From Squalus acanthias (Eukaryota), in assembly GCA_030390025.1 (NCBI GenBank), contig JASTWF010000104.1, forward strand, positions 310,001 to 374,000: a DNA stretch of 64,000 bases, given 5' to 3'. Of the stretch, positions 1-38,051 are shown in pieces. Numbering within the stretch: position 1 is the first letter of the stretch; every line of letters starts with the position of its first letter. Made by a program: the position numbers and the translations under genes. The notes under the pieces are model-generated. The model was given only the letters and a program-made list of their open reading frames with translations, had not been told where the DNA came from and searched no databases.

Positions 1-264
1 CCGGTGCTGTCAGTGAGTCAGGGACAGACCGCGACCATCACCTGTACCGCCAGCTCATCCATTAGCTACTACCTTGCTTGGTACCAGCAGAAAGCCGGCC
101 AGAAACCCTCTCTCCTGATCTATGATGCAACAACTCGTTTCACAGGAACCTCGGAGCGTTTCACCGGCAGTCAACAGTCCAACACGTTCACCCTGACCAT
201 CAGCAATGTGCAGAGTGAGGATGTGGCAGACTATTACTGTCAGCAAGATAACAGCTTCCCTCTA
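1..264 (+). CDS. IGKV: Immunoglobulin kappa-type light-chain V segment (germline, unrearranged; leader and start of FR1 lie upstream of the window)
   Basis: Frame 1 is open: [88 protein letters not shown]. Both Ig cysteines, WYQQ and DYYC are present. It resembles shark NS4/type III (kappa) V regions and is followed directly by a 12-RSS, the kappa configuration. Confidence 0.95.
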
Positions 265-292
265 CACAGTGAGACAGAGCCTTACAAAAACC
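265..292 (+). promoter_or_regulatory. V(D)J recombination signal, 12-bp spacer (12-RSS)
   Basis: CACAGTG (265-271) + 12 nt AGACAGAGCCTT + ACAAAAACC (284-292): perfect heptamer and nonamer. Confidence 0.98.
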
Positions 293-3132
293 TCAATACA
301 CACAGCACCACCTCCTGTACTGACTCACCCCACAGTTATATATAATATATAATGATGGACACACAGCACCGCCTCCTGTACTGACTCACCCCACAGTTAT
401 ATATAATATATAATAATGGACACACAGCACCGCCTCCTGTACTGACTCACCACACAGTTATATATAATATATAATAATGGACACACAGCACCGCCTCCTG
501 TACTGACTCACCCCACAGTTATATATAATAATGGACACACAGCACCGCCTCCTGTACTGACTCACCCCACAGTTATACATAATATATAATAATGGACACA
601 CAGCACCGCCTCCTGTACCGACTCACCCCACAGTTATATATAATATATAATAATGGACACACACACCGCCTCCTGTACTGACTCACCCCACAGTTATATA
701 TAATATATAATAATGGACACACAGCACCGCCTCCTGTACTGACTCACCCCACAGTTATATATAATATATAATAATGGACACACAGCACCGCCTCCTGTAC
801 TTACACACCCCACAGTTATATATAATATATAATAATGGACACACAGCACCGCCTCCTGTACTGACTCACCCCACAGTTATATATAATATATAATAATGGA
901 CACACAGCACCGCCTCCTGTACTGACTCACCCCACAGTTATATATAATATATAATAATGGACACACAGCACCGCCTCCTGTACTGACTCACCCCACAGTT
1001 ATATATAATATATAATAATGGACACACAGCACCGCCTCCTGTACTGACTCACCCCACAGTTATATATATTATATAATAATGGACACACAGCACCGCCTCC
1101 TGTACTGACTCACCCCACAGTTATATATAATATATAATAATGGACACACAGCACCGCCTCCTGTACTGACTCACCCCACAGTTATATATAATATATAATA
1201 ATGGACACACAGCACCGCCTCCTGTACTGACTCACCCCACAGTTATATATAATATATAATAATGGACACACAGCACCGCCTCCTGTACTGACTCACCCCA
1301 CAGTTATATATAATATATAATAATGGACACACAGCACCGCCTCCTGTACTGACTCACCCCACAGTTATATATAATATATAATAATGGACACACAGCACCG
1401 CCTCCTGTACTGACTCACCCCACAGTTATATATAATATATAATAATGGACACACAGCACCGCCTCCTGTACTGACTCACCCCACAGTTATATATAATATA
1501 TAATAATGGACACACAGCACCGCCTCCTGTACTGACTCACCCCACAGTTATATATAATATATAATAATGGACACACAGCACCGCCTCCTGTACTGACTCA
1601 CCCCACAGTTATATATATAATAATGGACACACAGCACCGCCTCCTGTACTGACTCACCCCACAGTTATATATAATATATAATAATGGACACACAGCACCG
1701 CCTCCTGTACTGACTCACCCCACAGTTATATATAATATATAATAATGGACACACAGCACCGCCTCCTGTACTGACTCACCCCACAGTTATATATAATATA
1801 TAATAATGGACACACAGCACCGCCTCCTGTACTGACTCACCCCACAGTTATATATAATATATAATAATGGACACACAGCACCGCCTCCTGTACTGACACA
1901 CCCCACAGTTATATATAATATATAATAATGGACACACAGCACCGCCTCCTGTACTGACTCACCCCACAGTTATATATAATATATAATAATGGACACACAG
2001 CACCGCCTCCTGTACTGACTCACCCCACAGTTATATATAATATATAATAATGGACACACAGCACCGCCTCCTGTACTGACTCACCCCACAGTTATATATA
2101 TTATATAATAATGGACACACAGCACCGCCTCCTGTACTGACTCACCCCACAGTTATATATATTATATAATAATGGACACACAGCACCGCCTCCTGTACTG
2201 ACTCACCCCACAGTTATATATAATATATAATAATGGACACACAGCACCGCCTCCTCTACTGACTCACCCCACAGTTATATATAATATATAATAATGGACA
2301 CACAGCACCGCCTCCTGTACTGACACACCCCACAGTTATATATAATATATAATAATGGACACACAGCACCGCCTCCTGTACTGACTCACCCCACAGTTAT
2401 ATATAATATATAATAATGGACACACATCACCGCCTCCTGTACTGACTCACCCCACAGTTATATATAATATATAATAATGGACACACAGCACCGCCTCCTG
2501 TACTGACTCACCCCACAGTTATATATAATATATAATAATGGACACACAGCACCGCCTCCTGTACTGACTCACCCCACAGTTATATATAATATATAATAAT
2601 GGACACACAGCACCGCCTCCTGTACTGACTCACCCCACAGTTATATATAATATATAATAATGGACACACAGCACCGCCTCCTGTACTGACTCACCCCACA
2701 GTTATATATAATATATAATAATGGACACACAGCACCGCCTCCTGTACTGACTCATCCCACAGTTATATATAATATATAATAATGGACACACAGCACCGCC
2801 TCCTGTACTGACTCACCCCACAGTTATATATAATATATAATAATGGACACACAGCACCGCCTCCTGTACTGACTCAACCCACAGTTATATATAATATATA
2901 ATAATGGACACACAGCACCGCCTCCTGTACTGACTCACCCCACAGTTATATATAATATATAATAATGGACACACAGCACCACCTCCTGTACTGACTCACC
3001 CCACAGTTATATATAATATATAAGAATGGACACACAGCACCACCTCCTGTACTGACTCACCCCACAGTTATATATAATAATGGACACACAGCACCGCCTC
3101 CTGTACTGACTCACCCCACAGTTATATATAAT

Positions 3133-3877
3133 GGCCCAGAAATTGATCTCGCTCTGTTCCCGCGGGGGTAAGCCTTCCCCGCGATGTCTCACCTCGCTTA
3201 TGCTTTTTCAGATCCAGCTCGCACGAACTTGATGTTCCAGACATCAGCTGTGCTGGGCTTGCGTATCCCAGCGGCGTAGTGAATTCGTGCGAGCTGTGGG
3301 ATCACGTGACTCAGTTAGAGCCAATGGCAGCACACCATCTTCCATTCATAAGTCTCACAGCATGGCTGTGAAATCTATGAATCTTACACCCCCCCAAAAT
3401 AACAGCTAAACCTCAATTAAATTTAAAAAAAAAACCATCACATTAATAAAATAAGTAAAGTTAATTAAATTAACCATTTTAAATAAAAAATTAAATTTTT
3501 GAAAAAGTTTAAAATCTTTTAAAAAGTTATAAAAATAAACTTACCTGTCTTTAAAGTCTATAAAAAAGATATAGCTGTAAAAAAAAAAATCAAAAAAATA
3601 CTTAATTCACTACTTACCTTCTTAAAAGCGGGTCTTACTCCTCCTTTTTACATTTCCAAAATCTTCCCTACTTACCTGCGCGTCCAAAGCATGAAGTGCA
3701 CAGCGTGCGCGCAGCCTGTAGCGCGCACGCGATGCACCCAGGCCCCGCCCCCTTTTCAGAAGAGCAATTGCCGGTTTTCAGCGCATGCGCAGGGCATGCA
3801 GAAAACCGGCAATTGGAGTGGGAATACGCGAGAGTACGCACTGCGTACTCTCGCGTCCCGGGATCAATTTTCGGCCC
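3133..3877. mobile_element. 745-bp non-autonomous DNA transposon (MITE, PIF/Harbinger-like), copy 1
   Basis: Imperfect TIRs GGCCCAGAAATTGATCTCG versus revcomp of the right end GGGCCGAAAATTGATCCCG (15/19). It sits in a satellite unit with 3 extra bases (AAT left, ATT right), fitting a 3-bp TSD with one mismatch. Subterminal hairpins and an AT-rich core; no coding capacity. Confidence 0.8.
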
Positions 3878-6314
3878 ATTATATAATAATGGACACACAG
3901 CACCGCCTCCTGTACTGACACTCCCCACAGTTATATATAATATATAATAATGGACACACAGCACCGCCTCCTGTACTGACTCACCCCACAGTTAAAAATA
4001 ATATATAATAATGGACACACAGCACCGCCTCCTGTACTGACTCACCCCACAGTTATATATAATATATAATAATGGACACACAGCACCGCCTCCTGTACTG
4101 ACTCACCCCACAGTTATATATAATATATAATAATAGACACACAGCACCGCCTCCTGTACTGACTCACCCCACAGTTATATATAATATGTAATAATGGACA
4201 CACAGCACCGCCTCCTGTACTGACTCACCCCACAGTTATATATAATATATAATAATGGACACACAGCACCGCCTCCTGTACTGACTCACCCCACAGTTAT
4301 ATATAATATATAATAATGGACACACAGCACCGCCTCCTGTACTGACTCACCCCACAGTTATATATAATATATAATAATGGACACACAGCACCGCCTCCTG
4401 TACTGACTCACCCCACAGTTATATATAATATATAATAATGGACACACAGCACCGCCTCCTGTACTGACTCACCCCACAGTTATATATAATATATAATAAT
4501 GGACACACAGCACCGCCTCCTGTACTGACTCACCCCACAGTTATATATAATATATAATAATGGACACACAGCACCGCCTCCTGTACTGACTCACCCCACA
4601 GTTATATATAATATATAATAATGGACACACAGCACCGCCTCCTGTACTGACTCACCCCACAGTTATATATAATATATAATAATGGACACACAGCACCGCC
4701 TCCTGTACTGACTCTACCCCACAGTTATATATAATATATAATAATGGACACACAGCACCGCCTCCTGTACTGACTCACCCCACAGTTATATATAATATAT
4801 AATAATGGACACACAGCACCGCCTCCTCTACTGACTCACCCCACAGTTATATATAATATATAATTATGGACACACAGCACCGCCTCCTGTACTGACACTC
4901 CCCACAGTTATATATAATATATAATAATGGACACACAGCACCGCCTCCTCTACTGACTCACCCCACAGTTATATATAATATATAATAATGGACACACAGC
5001 ACCGCCTCCTGTACTGACTCACCCCACAGTTATATATAATATATAATAATGGACACACAGCACCGCCTCCTCTACTGACTCACCCCACAGTTATATATAA
5101 TATATAATTATGGACACACAGCACCGCCTCCTGTACTGACTCACCCCACAGTTATATATAATATATAATAATGGACACACAGCACCGCCTCCTCTACTGA
5201 CTCACCCCACAGTTATATATAATATATAATTATGGACACACAGCACCGCCTCCTGTACTGACACTCCCCACAGTTATATATAATATATAATAATGGACAC
5301 ACAGCACCGCCTCCTGCACTGACTCACCCCACAGTTATATATAATATATAATAATGGACACACAGCACCGCCTCCTCTACTGACTCACCCCACAGTTATA
5401 TATAATATATAATTATGGACACACAGCACCGCCTCCTGTACTGACACTCCCCACAGTTATATATAATATATAATAATGGACACACAGCACCGCCTCCTGT
5501 ACTGACTCACCCCACAGTTATATATAATATATAATAATGGACACACATCACCGCCTCCTGTACTGACTCACCCCACAGTTATATATAATATATAATAATG
5601 GACACACAGCACCGCCTCCTGAACTGACTCACCCCACAGTTATATATAATATATAATAATGGACACACATCACCGCCTCCTGTACTGACTCACCCCACAG
5701 TTATATATAATATATAATAATGGACACACAGCACCGCCTCCTGTACTGACTCACCCCACAGTTATATATAATATATAATAATGGACACACAGCACCGCCT
5801 CCTGTACTGACTCACCCCACAGTTATATATAATATATAATAATGGACACACAGCACCGCCTCCTGTACTGACTCACCCCACAGTTATATATAATATATAA
5901 TAATGGACACACAGCACCGCCTCCTGTACTGACTCACCCCACAGTTATATATAATATATAATAATGGACACACAGCACCGCCTCCTGTACTGACTCACCC
6001 CACAGTTATATATAATATATAATAATGGACACACAGCACCGCCTCCTGTACTGACTCACCCCACAGTTATATATAATATATAATAATGGACACACAGCAC
6101 CGCCTCCTGTACTGACTCACCCCACAGTTATATATAATATATAATAATGGACACACAGCACCACCTCCTGTACTGACTCACCCCACAGTTATATATAATA
6201 TATAAGAATGGACACACAGCACCACCTCCTGTACTGACTCACCCCACAGTTATATATAATAATGGACACACAGCACCGCCTCCTGTACTGACTCACCCCA
6301 CAGTTATATATAAT

Positions 6315-7059
6315 GGCCCAGAAATTGATCTCGCTCTGTTCCCGCGGGGGTAAGCCTTCCCCGCGATGTCTCACCTCGCTTATGCTTTTTCAGATCCAGC
6401 TCGCACGAACTTGATGTTCCAGACATCAGCTGTGCTGGGCTTGCGTATCCCAGCGGCGTAGTGAATTCGTGCGAGCTGTGGGATCACGTGACTCAGTTAG
6501 AGCCAATGGCAGCACACCATCTTCCATTCATAAGTCTCACAGCATGGCTGTGAAATCTATGAATCTTACACCCCCCCAAAATAACAGCTAAACCTCAATT
6601 AAATTTTAAAAAAAAACCATCACATTAATAAAATAAGTATAGTTAATTAAATTAACCATTTTAAATAAAAAATTAAATTTTTGAAAAAATTTAAAATCTT
6701 TTAAAAAGTTATAAAAATAAACTTACCTGTCTTTAAAGTCTATAAAAAAGATATAGCTGTAAAAAAAAAATTCAAAAAAATACTTAATTCACTACTTACC
6801 TTCTTAAAAGCGGGTCTTACTCCTCCTTTTTACATTTCCAAAATCTTCCCTACTTACCTGCGCGTCCAAAGCATGAAGTGCACAGCGTGCGCGCAGCCTG
6901 TAGCGCGCACGCGATGCACCCAGGCCCCGCCCCCTTTTCAGAAGAGCAATTGCCGGTTTTCAGCGCATGCGCAGGGCATGCAGAAAACCGGCAATTGGAG
7001 TGGGAATACGCGAGAGTACGCACTGCGTACTCTCGCGTCCCGGGATCAATTTTCGGCCC
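6315..7059. mobile_element. MITE copy 2 (near-identical to 3133-3877)
   Basis: Same sequence and same flanking variant satellite units; offset +3182. Confidence 0.8.
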
Positions 7060-9008
7060 ATTATATAATAATGGACACACAGCACCGCCTCCTGTACTGA
7101 CACTCCCCACAGTTATATATAATATATAATAATGGACACACAGCACCGCCTCCTGTACTGACTCACCCCACAGTTAAAAATAATATATAATAATGGACAC
7201 ACAGCACCGCCTCCTGTACTGACTCACCCCACAGTTATATATAATATATAATAATGCACACACAGCACCGCCTCCTGTACTGACTCACCCCACAGTTATA
7301 TATAATATATAATAATAGACACACAGCACCGCCTCCTGTACTGACTCACCCCACAGTTATATATAATATGTAATAATGGACACACAGCACCGCCTCCTGT
7401 ACTGACTCACCCCACAGTTATATATAATATATAATAATGGACACACAGCACCGCCTCCTGTACTGACTCACCCCACAGTTATATATAATATATAATAATG
7501 GACACACAGCACCGCCTCCTGTACTGACTCACCCCACAGTTATATATAATATATAATAATGGACACACAGCACCGCCTCCTGTACTGACTCACCCCACAG
7601 TTATATATAATATATAATAATGGACACACAGCACCGCCTCCTGTACTGACTCACCCCACAGTTATATATAATATATAATAATGGACACACAGCACCGCCT
7701 CCTGTACTGACTCACCCCACAGTTATATATAATATATAATAATGGACACACAGCACCGCCTCCTGTACTGACTCACCCCACAGTTATATATAATATATAA
7801 TAATGGACACACAGCACCGCCTCCTCTACTGACTCACCCCACAGTTATATATAATATATAATAATGGACACACAGCACCGCCTCCTCTACTGACTCACCC
7901 CACAGTTATATATAATATATAATTATGGACACACAGCACCGCCTCCTGTACTGACACTCCCCACAGTTATATATAATATATAATAATGGACACACAGCAC
8001 CGCCTCCTGTACTGACTCACCCCACAGTTATATATAATATATAATAATGGACACACATCACCGCCTCCTGTACTGACTCACCCCACAGTTATATATAATA
8101 TATAATAATGGACACACAGCACCGCCTCCTGTACTGACTCACCCCACAGTTATATATAATATATAATAATGGACACACAGCACCGCCTCCTGTCCTGACT
8201 CACCCCACAGTTATATATAATATATAATAATGGACACACAGCACCGCCTCCTGTACTGACTCACCCCACAGTTATATATAATATATAATAATGGACACAC
8301 AGCACCGCCTCCTGTACTGACTCACCCCACAGTTATATATAATATATAATAATGGACACACAGCACCGCCTCCTGTACTGACTCACCCCACAGTTATATA
8401 TAATATATAATAATGGACACACAGCACCGCCTCCTGTACTGACTCACCCCACAGTTATATATAATATATAATAATGGACACACAGCACCGCCTCCTGTAC
8501 TGACTCACCCCACAGTTATATATAATATATAATAATGGACACACAGCACCGCCTCCTGTACTGACTCACCCCACAGTTATATATAATATATAATAATGGA
8601 CACACAGCACCGCCTCCTGTACTGACTCACCCCACAGTTATATATAATATATAATAATGGACACACAGCACCGCCTCCTGTACTGACTCTACCCCACAGT
8701 TATATATAATATATAATAATGTACACACAGCACCGCCTCCTGTACTGACTCACCCCACAGTTATATATAATATATAATAATGGACACACAGCACCGCCTC
8801 CTGTACTGACTCACCCCACAGTTATATATAATATATAATAATGGACACACAGCACCACCTCCTGTACTGACTCACCCCACAGTTATATATAATATATAAG
8901 AATGGACACACAGCACCACCTCCTGTACTGACTCACCCCACAGTTATATATAATAATGGACACACAGCACCGCCTCCTGTACTGACTCACCCCACAGTTA
9001 TATATAAT

Positions 9009-9753
9009 GGCCCAGAAATTGATCTCGCTCTGTTCCCGCGGGGGTAAGCCTTCCCCGCGATGTCTCACCTCGCTTATGCTTTTTCAGATCCAGCTCGCAC
9101 GAACTTGATGTTCCAGACATCAGCTGTGCTGGGCTTGCGTATCCCAGCGGCGTAGTGAATTCGTGCGAGCTGTGGGATCACGTGACTCAGTTAGAGCCAA
9201 TGGCAGCACACCATCTTCCATTCATAAGTCTCACAGCATGGCTGTGAAATCTATGAATCTTACACCCCCCCAAAATAACAGCTAAACCTCAATTAAATTT
9301 TAAAAAAAAACCATCACATTAATAAAATAAGTATAGTTAATTAAATTAACCATTTTAAATAAAAAATTAAATTTTTGAAAAAATTTAAAATCTTTTAAAA
9401 AGTTATAAAAATAAACTTACCTGTCTTTAAAGTCTATAAAAAAGATATAGCTGTAAAAAAAAAATTCAAAAAAATACTTAATTCACTACTTACCTTCTTA
9501 AAAGCGGGTCTTACTCCTCCTTTTTACATTTCCAAAATCTTCCCTACTTACCTGCGCGTCCAAAGCATGAAGTGCACAGCGTGCGCGCAGCCTGTAGCGC
9601 GCACGCGATGCACCCAGGCCCCGCCCCCTTTTCAGAAGAGCAATTGCCGGTTTTCAGCGCATGCGCAGGGCATGCAGAAAACCGGCAATTGGAGTGGGAA
9701 TACGCGAGAGTACGCACTGCGTACTCTCGCGTCCCGGGATCAATTTTCGGCCC
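9009..9753. mobile_element. MITE copy 3
   Basis: Same sequence and flanks; offset +5876 from copy 1. Confidence 0.8.
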
Positions 9754-10543
9754 ATTATATAATAATGGACACACAGCACCGCCTCCTGTACTGACACTCC
9801 CCACAGTTATATATAATATATAATAATGGACACACAGCACCGCCTCCTGTACTGACTCACCCCACAGTTAAAAATAATATATAATAATGGACACACAGCA
9901 CCGCCTCCTGTACTGACTCACCCCACAGTTATATATAATATATAATAATGGACACACAGCACCGCCTCCTGTACTGACTCACCCCACAGTTATATATAAT
10001 ATATAATAATAGACACACAGCACCGCCTCCTGTACTGACTCACCCCACAGTTATATATAATATATAATAATGCACACACAGCACCGCCTCCTGTACTGAC
10101 ACACCCCACAGTTATATATATTATATAATAATGGACACACAGCACCGCCTCCTGTACTGACTCACCCCACAGTTATATATAATATATAATAATGGACACA
10201 CAGCACCGCCTCCTGTACTGACTCTACCCCACAGTTATATATAATATATAATAATGTACACACAGCACCGCCTCCTGTACTGACTCACCCCACAGTTATA
10301 TATAATATATAATAATGGACACACAGCACCGCCTCCTGTACTGACTCACCCCACAGTTATATATAATATATAATAATGGACACACAGCACCACCTCCTGT
10401 ACTGACTCACCCCACAGTTATATATAATATATAAGAATGGACACACAGCACCACCTCCTGTACTGACTCACCCCACAGTTATATATAATAATGGACACAC
10501 AGCACCGCCTCCTGTACTGACTCACCCCACAGTTATATATAAT

Positions 10544-11288: not shown

Positions 11289-14139
11289 ATTATATAATAA
11301 TGGACACACAGCACCGCCTCCTGTACTGACACTCCCCACAGTTATATATAATATATAATAATGGACACACAGCACCGCCTCCTGTACTGACTCACCCCAC
11401 AGTTAAAAATAATATATAATAATGGACACACAGCACCGCCTCCTGTACTGACTCACCCCACAGTTATATATAATATATAATAATGGACACACAGCACCGC
11501 CTCCTGTACTGACTCACCCCACAGTTATATATAATATATAATAATAGACACACAGCACCGCCTCCTGTACTGACTCACCCCACAGTTATATATAATATGT
11601 AATAATGGACACACAGCACCGCCTCCTGTACTGACTCACCCCACAGTTATATATAATATATAATAATGGACACACAGCACCGCCTCCTGTACTGACTCAC
11701 CCCACAGTTATATATAATATATAATAATGGACACACAGCACCGCCTCCTGTACTGACTCACCCCACAGTTATATATAATATATAATAATGGACACACAGC
11801 ACCGCCTCCTGTACTGACTCACCCCACAGTTATATATAATATATAATAATGGACACACAGCACCGCCTCCTGTACTGACTCACCCCACAGTTATATATAA
11901 TATATAATAATGGACACACAGCACCGCCTCCTGTACTGACTCACCCCACAGTTATATATAATATATAATAATGGACACACAGCACCGCCTCCTGTACTGA
12001 CTCACCCCACAGTTATATATAATATATAATAATGGACACACAGCACCGCCTCCTGTACTGACTCACCCCACAGTTATATATAATATATAATAATGGACAC
12101 ACAGCACCGCCTCCTGTACTGACTCTACCCCACAGTTATATATAATATATAATAATGGACACACAGCACCGCCTCCTGTACTGACTCACCCCACAGTTAT
12201 ATATAATATATAATAATGGACACACAGCACCGCCTCCTGTACTGACTCACCCCACAGTTATATATAATATATAATAATGGACACACAGCACCGCCTCCTG
12301 TACTGACTCACCCCACAGTTATATATAATATATAATAATGGACACACAGCACCGCCTCCTGTACTGACACTCCCCACAGTTATATATAATATATAATAAT
12401 GGACACACAGCACCGCCTCCTGTACTGACTCACCCCACAGTTATATATAATATATAATAATGGACACACAGCACCGCCTCCTGTACTGACTCACCCCACA
12501 GTTATATATAATATATAATAATGGACACACAGCACCGCCTCCTGTACTGACTCACCCCACAGTTATATATAATAATAGACACACAGCACCGCCTCCTGTA
12601 CTGACTCACCCCACAGTTATATATAATATATAATAATGGACACACAGCACCGCCTCCTGTACTGACTCACCCCACAGTTATATATAATATATAATAATGG
12701 ACACACAGCACCGCCTCCTGTACTGACTCACCCCACAGTTATATATAATATATAATAATGGACACACAGCACCACCTCCTGTACTGACACACCCCACAGT
12801 TATATATAATATATAATAATGTACACACAGCACCGCCTCCTGTACTGACTCACCCCACAGTTATATATAATAATGGACACACAGCACCGCCTCCTGTACT
12901 GACTCACCCCACAGTTATATATAATATATAATAATGGACACACAGCACCGCCTCCTGTACTGACTCACCCCACAGTTATATATAATATATAATAATGGAC
13001 ACACAGCACCGCCTCCTGTACTGACTCACCCCACAGTTATATATAATATATAATAATGGACACACAGCACCACCTCCTGTACTGACTCACCCCACAGTTA
13101 TATATAATATATAATAATGGACACACAGCACCGCCTCCTGTACTGACTCACCCCACAGTTATATAAAATAATGGACACACAGCACCGCCTCCTGTACTGA
13201 CTCACCCCACAGTTATATATAATATATAATAATGGACACACAGCACCACCTCCTGTACTGACTCACCCCACAGTTATATATAATATATAATAATGGACAC
13301 ACAGCACCGCCTCCTGTACTGACACACCCCACAGTTATATATAATATATAATAATGGACACACAGCACCACCTCCTGTACTGACTCACCCCACAGTTATA
13401 TATAATAGATAATAATGGACACACAGCACCACCTCCTGTACTGACTCACCCCACAGTTATATATAATATATAATAATGGACACACAGCACCACCTCCTGT
13501 ACTGACTCACCCCACAGTTGTATATACATTGTAGACATGTTGCAAATAAGCTGCCTGGGTTAGAGAATCAGTGCATCTATACTGATCATTAAACTCGCTA
13601 GCTAGCGTATGAGAACTCTTAAGAAGCAATGTTAAACCTTTAAATGTTTTTATGCTAACAGATGACGTATTAGAAACAGATGCTTCGATCACCTACCTCA
13701 ACTGTGTTGGATAAATGAGCTGTTTAGTGCATTGCTGACACATGGCTCAATGAGAGTGACGGCAGAAATATTCACTGAAAGGTACAAGGAATTGAGAAAG
13801 GATGGAGCAGGTTAGAGCGGACCTGGGGCTGCTGTCTTCATCACTGAGAATCTCACAGCTCTACTCTTTTCATTGAAACAATAAGGAGACCCTGGATGGT
13901 CCCGGTGTCATCAATCAAAATCATCTAACAAAAGAGCCCACTATTGAGAGGGACACAAATTATAAAACCCAACTCATAAAAAATAAAGGAAACTGAACAA
14001 ATTAAATCATCAGGCTACTTCACTATCCACTACACACTCCAGTCCCTGCGGTGCCCACCGGTCACAGAAGGCCTAAAGCGCCCTGGCGGACTCCTTCTCC
14101 AGGGCCACCCTGGTGCAGACAAAGCCCCGGGAGAGAGGC

Positions 14140-17100
14140 AGGCAGCCCAGTTTGGGTTCCGCCAAGACCACTCAGCTGCCGACCTCATTACAGTCTTGGT
14201 CCAAACATGGACCAGGAGCTGGATTCCAGAGGAGAAGTGAGACTGACTGCCCTTGACATCAAGGCAGCATTTGACCGAGTGTGGCATCAAGGAGCCCCAG
14301 TAAAACTGAAGTCCATGGGAATCAGGGGGAAAACTCTCCACTGGCTGGAGTCATACCTAGCACAGAGGAAGATGGTTGTGGTGATTGAAGGTCAATCATC
14401 ACAGCCCCAGGACATCACTGCAGGAGTTCCTCAGGGCAGTATCCTAGGCCCAACCATCTTCAGCTGCTTCATCAATGACCTTCCCTCCAACATAAGGTCA
14501 GAAATGGGGATGTTCGCTGATAACTGCAGAGTGTTCAGTGCCATTCACAACTCCTCAGATAATGAAGCAGTCCATGCCCGCATGCAACAAGACCTGGACG
14601 ATGTTCAGGCTTGGGCTGATAAGTGGTAGGTAACATTCACGCCACAGAAGTGCCAGGCAATGACTGTCTCGAACAAGCGAGAGTCTAATCACCGCCCCTT
14701 GACATTCAATGGCATTACCATCGCCGAATCCCCCACCATCAACATCCTGGGGGTCACCATTGACCAGAAACTTAACTGGACCAGCCACATAAATACTGTG
14801 CTAACAAGAGCAGGTCAGAGGTTAGGTATTCTGTGGCGAGTGTCTCACCTCCTGACTCCCCAAAGCCTTTCTACCATCTACAAGGCACAAGCAAGGAGTG
14901 TGATGGAATACTCTCCACTTGCCTGGATGAGTGCAGCTCCAACAACACTCAAGAAGCTCGACACCATCCAGGACAAAGCAGCCCACTTGATTGGCACCCC
15001 ATCCACCACCTTAAACATTCACTCCCTCCACCACTGGTGTACCGTGGGTGCAGTGTGTACCATCTACAAGATGCACTGCAGCAACTCGCCAAGGCTTCTT
15101 CGGCAGCACCTCCCAAACCCGCGACCACTTCCACCTAGAGGACAAGGGCAGCAGGCGCATGGGAACACCACCACCTCCAAGTTCCCCTCCAAGTCACACA
15201 CCATCCTGACTTAGAATAATATCGCCGATCCTTCATTGTCACTGGTGTAAGGTTTCCAAAATTTGCAGATCCCCAAAACCTGAGGAAAAAGGACTTTGGA
15301 ACTACCTCAGAGTGATAATATTGTACTTGGGCCTAACCTAAGAGACTGTAAGACCAAAAACCAAGTTTTGGCATTTTAAAACTATGTCTGGGCCTGTAAA
15401 GGAACAAAAGGTGGGTCAACCTCTGTAAAAGCAGTTTTGGGTATTGCAGTTAATTGCACTGTCTGGGGAACCGGGATGACCTCACTCAAAGCCCCAGCAA
15501 GCATTAACATTTTGACAATAGACCCTAGGAGAAGACAGTCCCACCCAAAACAACAGGTCCCATCAAACCGATTACAGGACCCATCAGGAAACTTGCATAA
15601 TACAGAGCACCCAGGACTGGGCTATAGAAAAGTTGAGTCAAACTAGAAACCCAAAACACGAAACCAATCACCAGTAATCAGCCAAGGAGATCGACAGGAT
15701 GCAAACCATCCCAAAACCCATTTGACACTCACAGAGCAGTTACTGGTAACAGGCCCGCCAAATTCAGACAATGAACTGAGCAGATTTGGCGGGTAGATAA
15801 GGCCATGTTCAATGGGTGAGATTGAAGGCCTGTTAAAAACCCAGTTAACGTGCTAGTAAGTCGTTACCGATTTACGAGCCTGCCAAAACTAGACAATGAA
15901 CCGAGTAGATTTGGCGGGTAGATAAGGCCACTTCAATTCTGTATAACTGATGGCCCACCAAGCACACAGAGAGAGAGAGAAGAGCACAGTTTAAAGTTGT
16001 TGGGTCAAGCAGTCAGTCGCAACCACTGGTCATCAGAAGAAGAAGAGACCAAGAAGAAGACCCGAGTTGGAAGCGAGTCGGCATCACTCACCACTCAGAC
16101 TCACCTGAGTCCAGCTCGCGAAGACACCACCTCGACGGACCTCCAACAACGGCCCCAACACAGTCACCCAGAGCAACAAGCAGCAACAAGTCACCGACGG
16201 CTCCACAAGGTCGACTGACACACTAAACAAGGCCTAAAGCCATCGCGGAAACCGAACGCCTCACGAAACCAACAACCGCGCATTACCCCCAACTGACCGG
16301 GTAATAGCAGGCCACCGCGACCAACAAAGACCAACTCCAGGGAAGAAAACCCGAAGAATCGCAAAGTTTCCACACTACAAACTACTCCTGACTTACCCCT
16401 GAGTAAGATTTTCCCCAAAGACTCTAAGCCCTACTGCTCAACTAAAGAAATTGGGTACTCACCAGATAAATCCATAACGACATCCTACTGCATCAGCGGA
16501 CTCGCGAAGACTGACCAGAGACGCAGGTGAAGTCCTCTACCGCGTACGGGGTACGGCAGACACTAACCGCCATAAACAGCGAACCCCAAACTCGCGATTT
16601 AGCCCAACTGTCAAAGGATTGGTGAGCATTATCCCTGGTCCTTCAAAACCTAACTTAGCTGGTAAAGTGGGGTTGGGAGGGGTGAAGTATTGTTCTACTG
16701 TCATTTCCCTCGCTTGTACCGAAGTGTTCCCCACCTTTAGAGTGATAAGAGTGTTATTATTTGTGTCTTACCTTTTAATAAAGATTGAAGTTCTTTCATC
16801 AAACTCAGTTGTCTGCTGCACCTTTTGTATCACAACCCCCAAATAAGTCCAAGGTCTAGAACCAAGGGGGCGGGAGCGATTCAACCCGCTCAGAAGTCAG
16901 AGGTAAAGCTGACACACACCACCCCCTACACTGGGTCAAACCCTGGAACACCCTCCCTAACAGCACTGTGGGAGCACCTTCACCACATGGACTGCAGCGG
17001 TTCAAGAAGGCGGCTCACCACCACCTTCTCAAGGGCAACTAGGGATGGGCAATAAATGCTGTCCTTTCCAGCGACGCCAACATCCCATAAACAAATCAAA
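14140..17100 (+). mobile_element. 5'-truncated, degenerate non-LTR retrotransposon (CR1/L2-group RT to 3' tail), split by a solo LTR
   Basis: RT motifs QFGFR, LDIKAAFDRVWH, GVPQGSILGP..FINDL and FADN (degenerate YADD), with stops and frameshifts. The sequence resumes at 16931 after the LTR and ends with AATAAA and an A-rich tail near 17100. Confidence 0.88.
15246..16930 (+). mobile_element. Solo LTR, family A (1685 bp)
   Basis: Termini TGTAAGG...CCCTACA; 4-bp TSD CTGG on both sides; interrupts the LINE cleanly; AATAAA near 16777; ends homologous to 27005-28238. Confidence 0.88.
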
Positions 17101-17104
17101 AAAG

Positions 17105-17588
17105 CCAGTGTGATCACCCGTGTCCAACTCAGACCTGTGGATGGCCACCTTGGACAGGCCCAGGAGCAGACCCACGAGGAGGTCCTCCGACTTGCCCGCT
17201 CCCCTCCGCACTGGGTGGCCAATGACCAGGAGCCTGGGACTGAAGTGGAGCCAGAAGTTGAGGAACAGCCCCTTCAAATAATGGATGAGGGGCTGCAACC
17301 TCTCACTCTCCATGTACACATGATACACGGACTCAGGAAACAGGTTTCCAAAGCCTCTGAAACTCGCTATTTTAAAATGGTCCATGAGGAAGACCAGTGT
17401 CAGCAACAGAAACATCTCGTTTGCATATGGACCCTTTTTTAAGGGGCACAAAGAGGTGAGCTCTGTTTAACAGGAGACTTTCATTTTCCAGGAATTCTGT
17501 AGCACCAGGGTTTACCATCTGATGTGGTGGGTGTGCAGCTGAAAGATTTGTCGCATCAAGTAGGATTCCCAACTCTCCCGAGCACTGC
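17105..17588 (-). mobile_element. Degenerate L1/Tx1-clade LINE ORF2 C-terminal fragment
   Basis: Minus-strand peptide ESVYHVYMESERLQPLIHYLKGLFLNFWLHFSPRLLVIGHPVRRGAGKSEDLLVGLLLGLSKVAIHRS resembles the Tx1-type ORF2 tail (recognised from memory; boundaries approximate). Confidence 0.6.
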
Positions 17589-17834
17589 NNNNNNNNNNNN
17601 NNNNNNNNNNNNNNNNNNNNNNNNNNNNNNNNNNNNNNNNNNNNNNNNNNNNNNNNNNNNNNNNNNNNNNNNNNNNNNNNNNNNNNNNNNNNNNNNNNNN
17701 NNNNNNNNNNNNNNNNNNNNNNNNNNNNNNNNNNNNNNNNNNNNNNNNNNNNNNNNNNNNNNNNNNNNNNNNNNNNNNNNNNNNNNNNNNNNNNNNNNNN
17801 NNNNNNNNNNNNNNNNNNNNNNNNNNNNNNNNNN
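17589..17834. other. Assembly gap (246 N) between V and J
   Basis: Run of N. Confidence 1.
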
Positions 17835-18432
17835 AGAGGGAATGAAAGAGAGAGTGAGAGGGAGTGAGACAGTGAGTGAGAGAGAGAGGGAGAGAGAGAG
17901 TGAGTGAGCGAGAGAGTGAGTGAGAGAGGGATTGAGAGAGAGGGAGTGAGAGAGTGAGTGAGAGAGAGAGAGAGGGAGGGAGTGAGTGAGAGTGAGTGAG
18001 AGAGGGATTGAGAGAGAGAGAGGGAGTTAGAGAGAGAGAGGCAGTGAGAGAGAGAGGGAGGGTGAGAGCGAGTGAGAGAGTGAGAGAGTGAATGAGTGAG
18101 TGAGAGAGAGAGAGAGAGAGAGGGAGAGAGAGGTAGGGAGAGGGAGAGAGAGAGGGCGTGTAAGAGAGAGATAGACAGAATGAGAGAGGCACAGTGAGAG
18201 CGAAATATAATGAAAGAGTGAGAGAGACAGAGTGAGAAAGAGACCAAGAGACAGAGCAAGAGAGAGACATACAAACAGAGTGAGACACAGAGACACACAC
18301 ACTGAGAGAGACACAGAGAGAGAGACATAAACAAACATACAGAGACATACATACAGAGAGACAGAGACACACACACAGACACACACCGAGACGGCGAGAG
18401 ACAGAGCGAGGCTGAGAGTGACTGAGTGAGTG
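17835..18432. repeat. GA/GAGT-rich low-complexity purine tract just upstream of the J RSS
   Basis: Degenerate (GA)n/(GAGT)n/(CA)n sequence. Confidence 0.95.
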
Positions 18433-18446
18433 AACCAGGGAGCGGA

Positions 18447-18485
18447 GGATATTGTACTGCTCCTGCACTGGCAGCTGTCACTGTG
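18447..18485 (-). promoter_or_regulatory. 23-RSS of the J segment
   Basis: GGATATTGT (18447-18455; 7/9 to GGTTTTTGT) + exactly 23 nt + CACTGTG (18479-18485). Confidence 0.93.
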
Positions 18486-18520
18486 GCTTACGTTCGGTAA
18501 AGGAACCAAGCTCAGACTGA
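18486..18520 (+). CDS. IGKJ: Ig kappa-type J segment
   Basis: Reads LTFGKGTKLRL(S) with the FGxGT motif, followed by donor GTAAGT at 18521. Phase 1 matches the C exon acceptor (A+GC = Ser). Confidence 0.95.
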
Positions 18521-19084
18521 GTAAGTAAACCCCAATCCTCCGTTATTAACACTTTCAATACTGAAACTTTCTCAGACACAAATGCTGAATGTGCGAAGGT
18601 GTTAGTGGGGAGCAGCAGTGAATGAAATGGTTAATTGAAGAGTGCTGTGTGTGACAGGGTGCCCGGCTGTATTTCTTCAGTTACACTCCCCCTTCAAGCA
18701 GCAAACTATAAGTAACTAACTGTTACTGACCGTGTCGAGGAGAGCTGGAGGTTTGCAGACTGGTCACATCCCTGCACCATCCACCGAAATCACTGACTGG
18801 CCTCCTGCCAGTCTGAGTGTGAGAGACACGGGCAGAGTGTGGTGTGAGCTCTGGGCAGTCTGTGCCCCTGTCACAGTCTCTGATTATAACTGAGCTCAGC
18901 TTCAGTGCAGTGAGACACCGAGGTCCCGCCTCCCCCAGCTTTAACTCGGATCTGTCCAGTCCCCGGTTATCTCCTGTCCAAGTTCTGATCACAAACAGGT
19001 ACAGCAGGGCTCGCAATCCAGTGGCTTCAGTGTTCCAGGGCTTTGGGGAGACTCTCAGTCGCTTTTTCTGTGGGTCGAGTTCAG

Positions 19085-19290
19085 GCCGATATTTATCCCT
19101 CAACCAACATCGCTAAAAATGATCATTTATCTCATTGCTGTTTGTGGGAGCTTGCTGTGCGCAAATTGGTTGCCATGTTTCCCTACATTACAACAGTGAC
19201 TGCACTTTAAAAAAGTACTTCATTGGCTGTGAAGCGCTTTGGGATGTCCTGAGGTTGTGAAAGGCGCTATATAAATGCAAGTCTTTCTTT
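19085..19290 (+). mobile_element. Deu-domain SINE (SacSINE1/AmnSINE-like), 3' half
   Basis: TGCTGTTTGTGGGAGCTTGCTGTGCGCAAATTGG core and GGCGCTATATAAATGCAAGTCTTTCTTT tail, shared with three other copies in the window. Confidence 0.8.
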
Positions 19291-19730
19291 ACTTTCTCTT
19301 TTCCTTTTATTAACTGGGGCTCACACCACTCCCCTGTTGATTAGACCCGAGCCCAGCACAACATCCCCAGAAAACTGACTAATCTTCGTCTGATTTGTCT
19401 GCGTGTTTATTACACGGGACTGAGCAGACAGCAAGAGTTTCAGCAGCAACAAAGGGCGTTCCGTTAGTGCACCTCCCACTTTCCCCATCGACTTACGAGG
19501 TTCTTACGGGTAAACGGGCTCAGCCCCTTCCATCGACTGGTTAAATGTCAGCCCTCTAGACCACAGGCTTCCCCTCATCTGCTCCCCATCTCTCTCCTCA
19601 AGGCACTAGCTCTGGCTGGGGCACATCTCCCCTCCCCAAGTGGGGTCATTCCTCCGAGTGTGAGCGTGGCAGGCTATTCGACCGTGAGGTGTCAGCCCTG
19701 TCTCAGTGGGTCGCACGCTCGCCTCTGAGA

Positions 19731-20200
19731 AAAGAAAGACTTGCATTTATATAGCGCCTTTCACGACCACCAGACATCCCAAAGTGCTGTACAGCCAATG
19801 AAGTGCTTTTTGAAGTGTAGTCACTGTTGTAATGTAGGAAACGCAGCAGCCAATTTACACACAGCAAGCTCCCACAAACAGCAATGTGATAATGACCAGA
19901 TAATCTGTTTTTTAGTGATGTTGGTCGAGGGATAAATATTGGCCAGGACACCGGGGATAACTCCACTTCTCTTCTTCGAAATAGTGCTGGGGAATCATTT
20001 ATGTCCACCTTAGAGAGCAGACGGGGCCTCGGTTTAACATCTCATCTGAAAGATGGCACCTCCGACAGTGCAGCACTCCCTCAGCAACACACTGGAGTGT
20101 CAGCCTAGATATGTTCGTGCTCAAGTCTCTGGAGTGGGATTTGAACCCACAACCTCTGACTCAGGGGCGAGGGTGCTACCAACTGAGCCACAGCTGACAC
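19731..20200 (-). mobile_element. Full-length tRNA-headed Deu-domain SINE
   Basis: Minus strand has a Pol III A box TGGCTCAGTTGG (20179-20190), B box GGTTCAAATCC (20137-20147), the Deu core and an L2-like tail. Confidence 0.85.
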
Positions 20201-22680
20201 CATTCGGCCCATCGTGTCTGTGCCGGCTGAAAAAGAGCTATCCAGCCTAATCCCACTTTCCAGCTCTTGGTCCGTAGCCCTGTAGGTTACGGCACTTCAA
20301 GTGCATATCCAAGTGCTACTTAAATTAGATGAGGGTTTCTGCCTCTACCACCCTTTCAGGCAGTGAGTTCCAGACCCCCAGCACCCTCTGGATGAAAAAA
20401 GTTCTCCTCAACTCCCCTCTAATCCTTCTACCAATTACTTTAAATCTGTGCCCCCTGTTTATTGACCTCCTCTGCTAAGAGAAATAGGTCCTTCCTATCC
20501 ACTCTATCTGGGCCCCTGATAATTTTATACACATCAATTAAATCTCCCCTCAGCCTCCTCCGCTCAAAAAAAACCAAACACAGACTATCCAATCTTTCCT
20601 CATCGCTAAAATTGTCCAGCCCAGGCAACATCCTCGTAAATCTCCTCTGTACCCTCTCTAGCGCAATCACATCTTTCATGTAATGTGGTGACCAGAACTG
20701 CACGCAGTACTCTAGCTGTGGCCCAGCTAGTATTTTATACATTTCAAGCATAACCTCCCTGCTCTTACATTCTCTGCCGCGACTAATAAAGGAAAGTATC
20801 CCGTATGCCTTCTTAACCATCTTATCTACCTGTCCCACTACCTTCAGGGATCTGTGGACATGTGCTCCAAGGTCCCTCTGTTTCTCTACACTTCTCAGTG
20901 TCCTGCCATTTATTGTTTATTCCCTTGCTTTGTTAGCCCTCCCAAATGCATTACCTCACACTCCTCCGGATTGAATTCCATTTGCCACTTTTCTGCCCAC
21001 CTGACCAGTCCATTGATATCTTCCTGCAGTCTACTGCTTTCTTCCTCACTATCAACCACACAGGCAATTTTTGTATCATCTGCAATCATGCCCCTACGTT
21101 GAAGTCTAAATCATTGATATATACACCACAAAAGGCAAGGGACTTAGTACTGAGCCCTGCGGAACCCCACTGGAAACAGCCTGCCAGTCACATAAACACC
21201 TGTCGACCATTACCCTTTGCTTCCTGCCATTGAGCTAATTTTGGATCCAACTTGCCACTTTCCCTTGGATCCCATGGGCTTTTATTTTTCTGCCATGTGG
21301 GACCTTGTCAAAAGCCTTGCTAAAATCCATGTAAACTACATCAAACGCACTACCCTCATCGACCCTCCTTGTTACGTCCTCAAAAAATTCAATCCAGTTA
21401 GTCAGACACGACCTTCCCTTAACAAACCCATGCTGACTGTCCTTGATTAATCCATCCCTTTCTGAATGACAATTAATACTGTCCCTCAGAATTTTTTCCA
21501 ATAATTTTCCCAGCTCGCGGTAGCCAGAGAAGATTGGAAAATGATGGTTAGAGCCATCACTATTTCCTCCCTTGCCTCCCTTAACAGCCTGGGATATATT
21601 TCATCCGGGCCTGGCGATTTATCTACTTTCAAAGATGCTAAACCCCTTAATACTTCCTCTCTCACTATGTTTATCTCATCTAATATTTCACACACCTCCT
21701 CCGAAACTACAATGTCTGCATCGTCCCTCTCTTTTGTGAAGACAGACACAAAGTATTTATTAAGAACAATACCCTTGTCTTCCGCCTCCACACACAGGTT
21801 ACCTTTTTGGTCTCTAATAGGCCCTACTCTTCCTTTAGTTATCCTCTTGCTCTTTATGTATTTATAAAACATTTTTGGGCTTTCCTTGATTTTACTTGCC
21901 AATATTTTTTCATGCCCTCTCTTTGCATTCCTAATTTCCTTTTTAATTTCACCCCTGCACTTTCTATACTCCTCTAGGCTTTCTGCAGTATTTAGCTCTC
22001 GGTGTCTGACATAAGCTTCCTTTTTTTGCCTTATTCTACCCTGTATCCCCTTGACATCCAGGGTGCTCTAGATTCGGGAGTCCCATCCTTTTCCTTTCTG
22101 GGAATATATTTGCTCTGAACCCTCACTGTCTCCTCCTTGAATGCCTCCCACTGCTCTGACACTGATTTATCTTCAAGTAGCTGTTTCCAGCCCACTTTTG
22201 CTAAATCACATCTCAGCTTAGTAAAATTGGCCTTTCCCCCATCGAGAACTTTTACTCCTGGTCTATCTTTGTCCTTTTCCATAACTACGCTAAATCTAAC
22301 TGAATTATGCTCTCCCACTGTTACCCCTTGGTATCTGCCCAGCTTCATTCCCTAAAACCAAGTCCAGAACCGCCCCTCTCTTGTTGGGCATGCTACGTAC
22401 TGGCTAAAATTGTTCTCCTGAATGCATTTTAAGAATTCTGCGCCCTCTATACCTTTTACACTGATTCTTTCCCTGTTAATGTCAGGGTTGTTGAAAGCCC
22501 CTACTATTACTGCCCGATTGTTTTTGCACTTCTCAGAAATTTGCCAATATATTTGCTCTTCTATCTCCCTCTGACTATTTGGGGGTCGATAGTACACTCC
22601 CAGCAGTGTGATTGCCCTTTTTTGTTCTTCAATTCCACCCGTATGGACTCATTTGATGATCCTTCTAACATATCATCCCT
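20201..22680 (-). mobile_element. Degenerate CR1 LINE (endonuclease-RT-3' end) in the J-C intron
   Basis: Minus-strand fragments YYRPPNSQREIEEQI, DKSPGPDEIYPRLLREA, SQHGFVKGRSCLTN, DVVYMDFSKAFDKVPH, LEYCVQFWSPH..LERVQRRFTRM; frameshifted and internally deleted. Confidence 0.93.
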
Positions 22681-22960
22681 CTGTCGGAGGTGCCGTCTTT
22701 CAGATGAGACGTTAAACCGAGGCCCCGTCTGCCCTCTCAGCTGGACATGAAAGATCTCATGGTCACTATTTGAAGAAGAGCAAGGAGGGTCTTCCCAGTG
22801 TCCTGGCCAATATTTATCCCTCAACCAACATCGTTAACACAGATGATCTGGTCATTATCTCATTGCTGTCTGAGAGCTCGCTCTGTGCAATTGGCTGTAA
22901 AGCACCTTGGGACGTCCTGAGGTTGTAAAAGGGCGCTATATAAATGCAAGTCTTTCTTTG
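22681..22960 (+). mobile_element. Partial Deu-domain SINE
   Basis: Homologous to 19731-20200 and 57249-57700, with the same tail. Confidence 0.75.
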
Positions 22961-23666
22961 AAGTGGGAGGGTCCTGATCCTCGCCCATTGTCCGCACACT
23001 CTCACCTTCCAGGAGGTCACGGGTTAATAGGGAGCAGTGACCCTGCCTGACCCCGGTACACTGAGGCCACTTGTAGCCTCACCCTTGACCTCACCCTAGT
23101 GCTGGGCGACAAGGTTTTAAATGAAATCTAGAACCTTCTACACCGACACCCAACATGAAGCCTTTCTAAAGTGTGGTGATACAAGTCTGCTCCAGTGTTC
23201 TCGGGTAAAGTTCTCCCGATCTGTGTGTGATCTGAGGTTTCTTAATGCTGAGCCTGTTTCCTTCGCATCGACTGATCTACAGTTGGAGCTTCCTGCCAGG
23301 TTAACAACATCTTAAAGGGACCCTGAGTCTTTAAGTACTCGGACTATTAACCATTTCATCGCTGAATTTGTGGCAACCCTTCACTGCAGATGTTTATAGA
23401 ACACTCCAATATGATTTAACCACCTTAACATCAAACGCATTTATATTTAGATTAATCTTAAGTGAGACAAAAAAGAAGCAAATTAAGAATTAGTGATGCT
23501 CGTGTCTAATGGTTCATCACCAACCAGGAGTTCATCGACCCAGCTCTCCGTTATCAGATGTGAATTATCCACACACGGAAACACCCACAGAGACACACAC
23601 ACACACAAATATACGCACAGAATGCTCAAATATACACCGATTAACAGCCCTTCTCCTCTCTTTCAG

Positions 23667-23995
23667 GCCGAGGGAAGAGTCAACCCACGCTGACCCTGCT
23701 GCCCCCCTCCCCGGAGGAGGTCACGACCAAGGGCACTGCCACCCTGGTGTGCCTCGCCGATCACTTCTACCCCGATGCCGTGGGGGTGGAGTGGAAGAAG
23801 GACGGGGCGACCATTTCGGCCGGGGTTCAGACCAGCGACTACCTGCGAGCTTCGGACAACACCTACAGCGTCAGCAGCCTGCTGACCCTCTCTGGCTCCG
23901 ACTGGGAGTCCAACGCCAGCTTCTCCTGCGCCCTCACGCACGAGACCCTCTCCTCGCCCCTCAGCAAGAGCGTCAGCAGAGCAGAATGTGCGTAG
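23667..23995 (+). CDS. IGKC: Ig kappa-type light-chain constant exon
   Basis: Polypyrimidine tract plus TTTCAG acceptor. Reads (S)RGKSQPTLTLLPPSPEEVTTKGTATLVCLADHFYPDAVGVEWKKDG...YSVSSLLTLSGSDWESNASFSCALTHETLSSPLSKSVSRAECA*, an intact C1-set domain with the penultimate interchain Cys. Confidence 0.96.
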
Positions 23996-33998: not shown

Positions 33999-34010
33999 TT
34001 CTCCCCCCCC
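33999..34010 (-). promoter_or_regulatory. Polypurine tract
   Basis: GGGGGGGGAGAA on the - strand, abutting the 3' LTR. Confidence 0.9.
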
Positions 34011-38050: not shown

Positions 38051-38051
38051 T

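What the first reader, a model, noticed from the sequence alone, without database searches (positions are those of the whole stretch)
1..23995. Intact unrearranged shark kappa V-J-C cluster with its V-J interval inflated to about 18 kb
Seen: open V with a perfect 12-RSS, J with a 23-RSS, and a C exon with matching splice phase. V and J are 18.2 kb apart: about 13.2 kb satellite/MITE, about 3.5 kb retroelements, a gap, and only about 1 kb other sequence. Established: cartilaginous-fish Ig genes are compact V-(D)-J-C miniloci with closely spaced segments. Inference: a compact cluster was stretched by repeat growth. It would then be a natural test of whether shark intra-cluster rearrangement needs proximity, and rearrangement would excise a circle of about 18 kb made mostly of satellite.
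Basis: partly seen in the sequence, partly recalled or inferred. Interest (0 to 1): 0.7.

Follow-up and report, generated by a model that had tools for sequence, protein, structure and literature searches.

The report
Repeat-stretched shark antibody light-chain gene
In this assembly a shark antibody light-chain gene has its V and J pieces about 18,000 bases apart instead of the usual 500 or so, likely because a bit of its own spacer multiplied and mobile elements piled in; it likely still joins them, less often, and would let one test whether sharks need short distances to build antibodies.

Summary
Observation confirmed, with limits. The window holds an open kappa (type III/NS4) V, a perfect 12-RSS, a J with 23-RSS and an in-phase C exon. 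V and J are 18,221 bp apart as assembled; nurse shark NS4 has 502-524 bp. On the V contig alone, 17,324 bp carry no J.

New here: the 61-bp satellite is the native spacer just behind the V nonamer. Kappa gene models of six other sharks read through the same sequence. It grew to ~168 copies plus four 747-bp MITEs, recently, likely by unequal exchange. An antisense L1/Tx1-like piece is split by a CR1-type LINE that holds a solo LTR. The pieces either side of the 246-N gap fit one spacer in order, but no reads could be checked.

Limits: leader and promoter lie outside the window; the J nonamer is non-consensus (7/9); GSQQSNT is shared with a paralog; tandem repeats fill 57% of the window both inside and outside the gene.

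Best reading: one cluster stretched in place that likely still rearranges by deletion, less often. New variant of a known kind; interest 0.42.

The parts
1..264 (+). Ig kappa (type III/NS4) V segment, FR1 (partial) to germline CDR3, open frame; 5' end outside the window
265..292 (+). V 12-RSS, consensus heptamer and nonamer
298..13526 (+). 61-bp tandem array (about 168 units, about 1% substitutions from the commonest unit) grown from the native V-proximal spacer; four MITE-bearing higher-order blocks
   Evidence: homology
629..667 (+). cryptic 23-spacer RSS-like site in one variant unit (3 mismatches), same orientation as the V RSS
   Evidence: 7 of 100 shuffles reach two such sites, so not significant alone
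3132..3878 (.). MITE copy 1 (747 bp, imperfect terminal inverted repeat), 4 differences from copies 2-4
6314..7060 (.). MITE copy 2
9008..9754 (.). MITE copy 3 (identical to copies 2 and 4)
10543..11289 (.). MITE copy 4
13527..13960 (.). unassigned single-copy spacer sequence (boundary approximate)
   Evidence: no self-match, no model match
13960..14146 (-). 3' end of an L1/Tx1-like LINE, antisense to the gene (left half; left boundary approximate)
14147..17103 (+). 5'-truncated LINE with RT domain (CR1-type label recalled), inserted into the L1/Tx1-like element; one in-frame stop
   Evidence: (RVT_1 E=2.4e-19)
15246..16930 (+). solo LTR (TG...CA, 4-bp target duplication) inside the LINE; 83% identical to a second solo LTR at 27005-28238
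17104..17588 (-). L1/Tx1-like ORF2 C-terminal piece (right half), with stops, running into the gap
17589..17834 (.). assembly gap, 246 N
17835..18430 (+). GA/CA-rich microsatellite tract; a GA-rich read-through also precedes J in the Stegostoma model P0027
   Evidence: low-complexity match
18447..18485 (-). J 23-RSS, perfect heptamer, nonamer 7/9
18486..18520 (+). J kappa segment (LTFGKGTKLRLS), GT donor at 18521; 18493-18510 matches the nurse shark NS4 J primer JL5 at 18 of 18 bases
   Evidence: primer from PMC2193156 methods, compared by eye
18521..23666 (+). J-C intron, 5,146 bp, with three SINE-like repeats and an antisense LINE fragment (about 20200-22660)
23667..23995 (+). C kappa exon, open, stop at the end; AATAAA at 24963 and 25058

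Best explanation
This is an unrearranged shark kappa V-J-C cluster whose V-J spacer is 18.2 kb as assembled, likely one cluster stretched in place, and it likely still joins V to J by RAG-mediated deletion, at a lower rate than its short-spacer paralogs. Shown: V, both RSS, J and C are open and in deletional orientation; the first 61 bp behind the V nonamer are native kappa spacer and now form about 168 tandem copies; a MITE sits in four blocks of the array; an antisense L1/Tx1-like piece is split by a LINE that holds a solo LTR. Inferred order: L1/Tx1-like piece first (spacer about 2 kb), then LINE and LTR (about 5 kb), then recent slippage and unequal exchange of the unit and of MITE-bearing blocks (18 kb). 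Inferred function: RAG bound at one RSS would capture the other by diffusion over 18 kb and would excise a circle that is 73% array.
For: Kappa identity: 23 of 30 hits to C are named kappa and all 29 named hits are sharks; V and C each group with Pristiophorus models and P0001 at starred support. Native origin of the unit: 9 of 14 non-V/J/C middles of gene models, from six shark species, match 265-349; 5 of the 14 reach position 334 or beyond; only 1 of 14 (low complexity) hits the 24-64 kb control. Recent unequal exchange: the same variant units flank all four MITEs, periods differ (3182, 2694, 1535 bp), blocks are mosaics, MITE copies differ at 0-4 of 753 bases. One split element: 5 of 61 relatives hit both L1/Tx1-like halves in order. 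Join plausible: antisense pieces of that element lie between V and J in Scyliorhinus P0024 (0 of 200 shuffles reach the score) and Hemiscyllium P0019 (1 of 200), and between V and C in Pristiophorus P0004 (0 of 200); the right contig starts with the GA-rich part seen before J in P0027; no spacer part is doubled. Continued function: V, RSS, J and C stayed open while the older retroelements gathered stops. The J nonamer variant also shows in Heterodontus P0003. [quoted passage not shown]
Against: No reads or transcripts could be examined, and both gap flanks are repeats. Repeat matches in gene models need not be orthologous: Cetorhinus P0012 matches the J-C LINE at 94%, and Tx1 elements can target (TC)n tracts repeatedly (PMC4494074, passages). 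The array is so young (about 1% divergence) that open frames say nothing about function since it grew. The J nonamer is consensus-compatible (EVFV) in 5 of 7 readable models and like this one in 1 of 7; two nonamer changes can alter efficiency about 1000-fold in mouse substrates (PMC2193808, passage), and diffusional joining needs strong RSS (PMC11153149). Shark IgH data show little long-range recombination (PMC2435157, passages). Leader and promoter are not in the window.
Confidence: 0.5

Rival explanations
1. One stretched cluster, but now silent: the 13-kb array, the distance or the weak J nonamer stops rearrangement, and the gene is a very young pseudogene in a family of dozens.
For: Array divergence about 1% leaves no time for decay to show; J nonamer 7/9; kappa families are large (about 50 NS4 genes, some pseudogenes; PMC2193156 results), so loss is cheap; 155 units carry a 5-mismatch 23-RSS-like site and one a 3-mismatch site that could act as decoys.
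Against: Coding parts and the V RSS stayed clean through the older insertions; the nonamer variant is shared with a Heterodontus model; RABGAP1L next door keeps open exons among similar minisatellites.
Confidence: 0.25
2. Misjoin or two clusters: an orphan V with a runaway array has been scaffolded to the J-C of another cluster whose own V is hidden in an undersized gap.
For: The right contig starts only 651 bp from the J coding end, about a normal spacer length; near-identical paralogs exist (P0001, 93% V, 98% C); both flanks are repeats.
Against: 246 N cannot hold promoter, leader, intron and V if the size is real; the gap size is not round, unlike the 200-N gap at 46160, which suggests an estimated distance (convention recalled); the two contigs carry complementary spacer parts. 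Even then the V has no J within 17,324 bp.
Confidence: 0.15
3. The array length is an assembly artefact and the true spacer is about 5-8 kb.
For: MITE copies 2-4 are identical; 87 of 165 short units equal the commonest unit.
Against: Blocks differ in length and are mosaics of shared variants; indel errors are nearly absent; copy 1 has four private differences.
Confidence: 0.07
4. Long spacers are the norm for kappa clusters in this species or in repeat-rich shark genomes, so this cluster is not an outlier (compatible with the best explanation).
For: 57% tandem repeat both inside and beyond the gene; LINE pieces appear between V and J or C in models of three other sharks.
Against: Published distances are 502-524 bp for NS4 (PMC2193156) and 250-500 bp generally (PMC5192425, passage); the array is very recent.
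Confidence: 0.3

Closest known systems
Nurse shark NS4 / horn shark type III (Ig kappa) split V-J-C clusters (Lee et al. 2000, PMC2193156)
   Same: One V, one J, one C in the same orientation; 12-RSS on V, 23-RSS on J; J matches primer JL5 at 18 of 18; C 82% identical to nurse shark P0007 and 85-90% to Heterodontus.
   Different: V-J interval 18,221 bp against 502-524 bp (about 36-fold), 73% of it an array grown from the spacer itself; J nonamer non-consensus.
Cartilaginous-fish Ig miniloci in general (PMC5192425, PMC2435157)
   Same: Single-cassette layout, deletional orientation, no second V or J within 64 kb.
   Different: Segments are described as 250-500 bp apart and clusters 82 to >200 kb apart; this spacer lies between those scales.
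Mouse Igk Vk-Jk joining across Cer-Sis (PMC11153149)
   Same: 12-RSS V captured by a 23-RSS J over ten or more kb; a working analogy for the distance.
   Different: Translocon with CTCF elements and strong RSS on both sides; nothing equivalent is shown here.
Record P0001 (name withheld by the tool)
   Same: 93% V and 98% C identity, same GSQQSNT motif.
   Different: V and J are joined; 7 V/J and 2 C differences. Whether it is a rearranged transcript or a germline-joined paralog is unknown.

Membership tests
Elasmobranch Ig kappa (type III/NS4) | C and V sequences group with known kappa | tested here: met
   the trees held kappa rows only, so they place it within kappa; other shark isotypes did not reach E<=1e-20
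Elasmobranch Ig kappa (type III/NS4) | 12-RSS on V and 23-RSS on J | tested here: met
Elasmobranch Ig kappa (type III/NS4) | single V, J, C in one orientation | tested here: met
   (one V-like and one J-like motif); sequence left of position 1 not visible
Canonical compact minilocus | V-J 250-500 bp apart | tested here: not met
   18,221 bp as assembled; at least 17,324 bp without a J on the V contig
Canonical compact minilocus | V and J physically on one molecule | tested here: inconclusive
   246-N gap; colinear spacer homology supports the join but no reads
Functional kappa cluster | open V, J, C with in-phase splice sites | tested here: met
Functional kappa cluster | octamer promoter and leader exon | not testable with these tools
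   upstream of window position 1
Functional kappa cluster | efficient J RSS | tested here: inconclusive
   nonamer 7/9; same variant inferred in 1 of 7 readable models; no efficiency assay
Functional kappa cluster | somatic rearrangement and expression | not testable with these tools
   no transcript or read data
Germline-joined kappa | V fused to J, RSS lost | tested here: not met
   both RSS present
L1/Tx1-type LINE (13960-14146, 17104-17588) | ORF2 with RT and zf-RVT | tested here: inconclusive
   62 relatives; 3 of 27 scanned have zf-RVT or RVT_1 below the curated cut-off; clade label partly recalled
MITE | non-coding, terminal inverted repeats, short target duplication | tested here: met
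   747 bp, 27-nt arms 85% complementary including flank; duplication ambiguous in AT-rich flank; superfamily not assigned

The most novel reading that the evidence does not exclude
This 18-kb kappa cluster rearranges in shark B cells about as often as its 0.5-kb paralogs and throws out an 18-kb circle made mostly of its own amplified spacer. Then shark rearrangement is kept inside a cluster by chromatin domain limits, not by short distance, and spacer growth by repeats is a direct path from minilocus toward translocon. In addition, the kappa spacer of four shark orders would carry one ancient antisense L1/Tx1-like relic.
Probability: 0.18. Interest if true: 0.72.

Novelty: new variant of a known kind. 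Interest (0 to 1): 0.42.

Why it matters
Shark Ig clusters are thought to rearrange without locus contraction because their segments are a few hundred bases apart (PMC2435157). A cluster with the same parts 36 times further apart, beside near-identical paralogs, gives a natural dose point between 0.5 kb (works) and about 120 kb (rarely works). The test is cheap: compare coding-joint frequency with short-spacer paralogs that have the same J nonamer. Such a cluster would also have been missed by the PCR and small-insert library screens that defined the 500-bp rule (inference from the methods of PMC2193156), so the rule may be biased. The value is capped: it is one member of a large family, in a region where every intron is swollen with minisatellites, with an unresolved gap and no expression data.

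Tried and rejected
1) The satellite as an invading repeat: rejected, its unit is native spacer. 2) GSQQSNT as a locus signature: rejected, shared with P0001. 3) The J nonamer as proof of inactivation, or as the shark norm: neither; 1 of 7 readable models is alike, 5 are consensus-compatible, 1 differs otherwise. 4) The array as a strong RSS decoy field: only 1 site has 4 or fewer mismatches (the cut-off in PMC11153149 methods); 155 have 5; two 23-RSS matches occur in 7 of 100 shuffles. 5) An L1 tail relic in Stegostoma P0027: not significant, 83 of 200 shuffles. 6) 13986-14084 as unique native spacer: it is the antisense 3' end of the LINE-like element. 7) Structured RNAs: 0 Rfam hits. 8) Octamer or kB motifs in 1-31,000: none. 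9) PDB search of C gave only generic antibody hits; the Atlas search of the LINE-like piece gave no usable hit. 10) Species: RABGAP1L exons differ from both Heptranchias and Pristiophorus, so only 'likely squalomorph shark' is claimed. 11) Accession numbers of the gene models, and so their genomic V-J distances, could not be obtained. 12) Two key papers (Iacoangeli et al. 2015; Criscitiello and Flajnik 2007) are not held. Searches listed no paper whose title or abstract reports a multi-kb shark V-J spacer; this covers open-licence papers only.
Full report
Observation. Window 1-264 is an open V segment that begins inside FR1 (V-set E=7.8e-18). A 12-RSS with consensus heptamer and nonamer follows at 265-292; about 6e-5 exact matches are expected in the window. 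A 23-RSS at 18447-18485 has a perfect heptamer and a 7/9 nonamer. J runs 18486-18520 with a GT donor, and C runs 23667-23995, open and in phase. These are the only V-like and J-like motifs in six frames. The interval is 18,221 bp, of which 17,324 bp lie on the V contig with no J, 246 are N and 651 lie on the J contig.

Identity. A search with C returned 30 proteins; all 29 named ones are from sharks and 23 are named kappa. V and C each group with Pristiophorus japonicus models and with P0001 at starred support (kappa rows only, 16 and 15 rows). J matches the NS4 primer JL5 of Lee et al. 2000 at 18 of 18 bases (by eye). So this is a type III/NS4 kappa cluster, likely from a squalomorph shark. 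In nurse shark the split NS4 genes have 502-524 bp between V and J (PMC2193156; parts 1-3 of 7 and passages read). A review gives 250-500 bp within clusters and 82 to >200 kb between them (PMC5192425; passages). The interval here is about 36 times the NS4 figure.

Where the satellite came from. Automated gene models of split clusters often read through spacer DNA, which lets protein records act as probes. Of 30 proteins, 14 had a non-V/J/C middle of 20 residues or more. Nine of the 14, from Heterodontus, Cetorhinus, Scyliorhinus, Chiloscyllium, Hemiscyllium and Stegostoma, match 265-349, that is the RSS and the first array unit; five reach position 334 or beyond. One of 14, a low-complexity match, hits the 24-64 kb control. 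The 61-bp unit is therefore likely the conserved V-proximal end of the kappa spacer, amplified in place. The first and last units share a variant that most interior units lack.

How the array grew. It spans 298-13526: about 168 units (10,241 bp) and four 747-bp MITEs. Of 165 short units, 87 equal the commonest one; 150 full-length units differ from it by 1.0%. The same three variant units precede, and the same two follow, every MITE; the periods are 3182, 2694 and 1535 bp; blocks are mosaics; MITE copies 2-4 are identical and copy 1 differs at 4 of 753 bases. One MITE insertion followed by recent unequal exchange is the simplest reading (inference). Differing block lengths and the near absence of indel noise argue against an assembler duplication, but reads are needed.

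Nested retroelements. 13960-14146 and 17104-17588 are two halves of one antisense element: 5 of 61 relatives hit both halves in order. Three of 27 relatives scanned carry zf-RVT or RVT_1 below cut-off, so the L1/Tx1 label is partly recalled. It is split by a LINE with an RT domain (14147-17103; CR1 label recalled), which holds a solo LTR at 15246-16930 with a 4-bp duplication. Removing these layers by length gives about 5.1 kb, 2.1 kb and 1.2 kb.

Is the join real? It cannot be shown here. For it: antisense pieces of the same L1/Tx1-like element lie between V and J in Scyliorhinus P0024 (0 of 200 shuffles) and Hemiscyllium P0019 (1 of 200) and between V and C in Pristiophorus P0004 (0 of 200); a GA-rich read-through precedes J in Stegostoma P0027 as it does here (low complexity); no spacer part is doubled across the gap; 246 is not a round filler like the 200-N gap at 46160 (convention recalled). 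Against it: both flanks are repeats; a fourth candidate match (P0027) failed the shuffle test (83 of 200); Cetorhinus P0012 matches the J-C LINE at 94%, so such matches can be independent insertions; Tx1 families can target (TC)n tracts (PMC4494074; passages); the 651 bp before J is about one normal spacer. I put the join at about 0.8. Either way this V has no J within 17.3 kb.

Does it work? No expression data were available. [quoted passage not shown] Against: the array is too young for decay to show; diffusional joining needs strong RSS (same paper); the J nonamer reads EDIV here and in 1 of 7 readable models (Heterodontus P0003), against EVFV in 5 and EVYV in 1; two nonamer changes can shift efficiency from 3.5% to under 0.004% (PMC2193808; passage); shark IgH shows little long-range joining (PMC2435157; passages). 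Each unit carries CAC motifs on the V-RSS strand; one site (629-667) has 3 mismatches and 155 have 5, weak decoys at most. My commitment: deletional joining persists at a reduced rate (0.5 overall); silent 0.25; misjoin 0.15; inflated array 0.07.

Context. Tandem repeats cover 36,522 of 64,000 bp, 57%, and also 57% beyond position 24,000 (rows merged by hand). Past the 200-N gap lie six 3' exons of RABGAP1L on the minus strand, with minisatellites in most introns. Kappa and RABGAP1L hits share contig lengths in 3 of 3 species where both were given (Scyliorhinus torazame, Stegostoma tigrinum, Chiloscyllium punctatum), which likely means conserved linkage. The stretch is thus one case of a regional tendency.

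'Intact' cannot be verified without leader and promoter. GSQQSNT is shared with P0001, which differs at seven V/J and two C residues. The proximity test must control for the J nonamer.

Novelty. Seven searches listed no title or abstract reporting a multi-kb V-J spacer in a shark cluster; the library holds open-licence papers only, and two key kappa papers were not held. Passages of PMC12227049 (with section 6 and a term search of its two supplements), PMC13320880 and PMC4279169 gave no spacer lengths; supplements of the bioRxiv-origin VGP paper were not examined and may list loci. Verdict: new variant of a known kind, interest 0.42.

Noticed in passing
window 46526-57896, minus strand: Six 3' exons of RABGAP1L (best hit Heptranchias, 98% over the last 46 residues), tail to tail with the kappa cluster across a 200-N gap. 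Contig lengths are shared by kappa and RABGAP1L hits in 3 of 3 species. RABGAP1L lies in an MHC-paralogous region in human (recalled), which bears on ideas about the origin of antigen-receptor loci.
   Followed up: partly
window 13960-14146 and 17104-17588: Antisense pieces of the same L1/Tx1-like element occur in kappa gene models of Scyliorhinus, Hemiscyllium and Pristiophorus: either an ancient relic in the kappa spacer or repeated targeting of its GA tract.
   Followed up: partly
window 18447-18455: Non-consensus J nonamer whose read-through (EDIV) matches a Heterodontus model, suggesting an old tolerated variant.
   Followed up: partly
window 629-667: One variant unit forms a 3-mismatch 23-RSS-like site 364 bp from the V heptamer, at about the normal V-J distance, oriented for inversional joining.
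   Followed up: partly
window 33805-38245, minus strand: Compact Gypsy-type LTR retrotransposon inside a 34-bp minisatellite; LTRs nearly identical, protease, RT, RNase H and integrase domains, one in-frame stop between the two ORFs; very young.
   Followed up: partly
window 15246-16930 and 27005-28238: Two solo LTRs of one family, 83% identical, each with a 4-bp target duplication.
   Followed up: partly
window 42207-42915 and 47261-48159: Two more GC-rich inverted-repeat elements of a second MITE-like family.
   Followed up: no
window 43100-44590, minus strand: RT-bearing retroelement fragment (RVT_1), cut by the 34-36-bp minisatellite.
   Followed up: no
window 24152-24766: A 67-bp minisatellite lies between the C stop codon and the first AATAAA (24963), so it likely sits in the 3' UTR.
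   Followed up: no
record P0001: Joined V-J-C near-identical to this gene, with two unusual C changes (Y to C, W to R); a transcript or a germline-joined paralog.
   Followed up: partly
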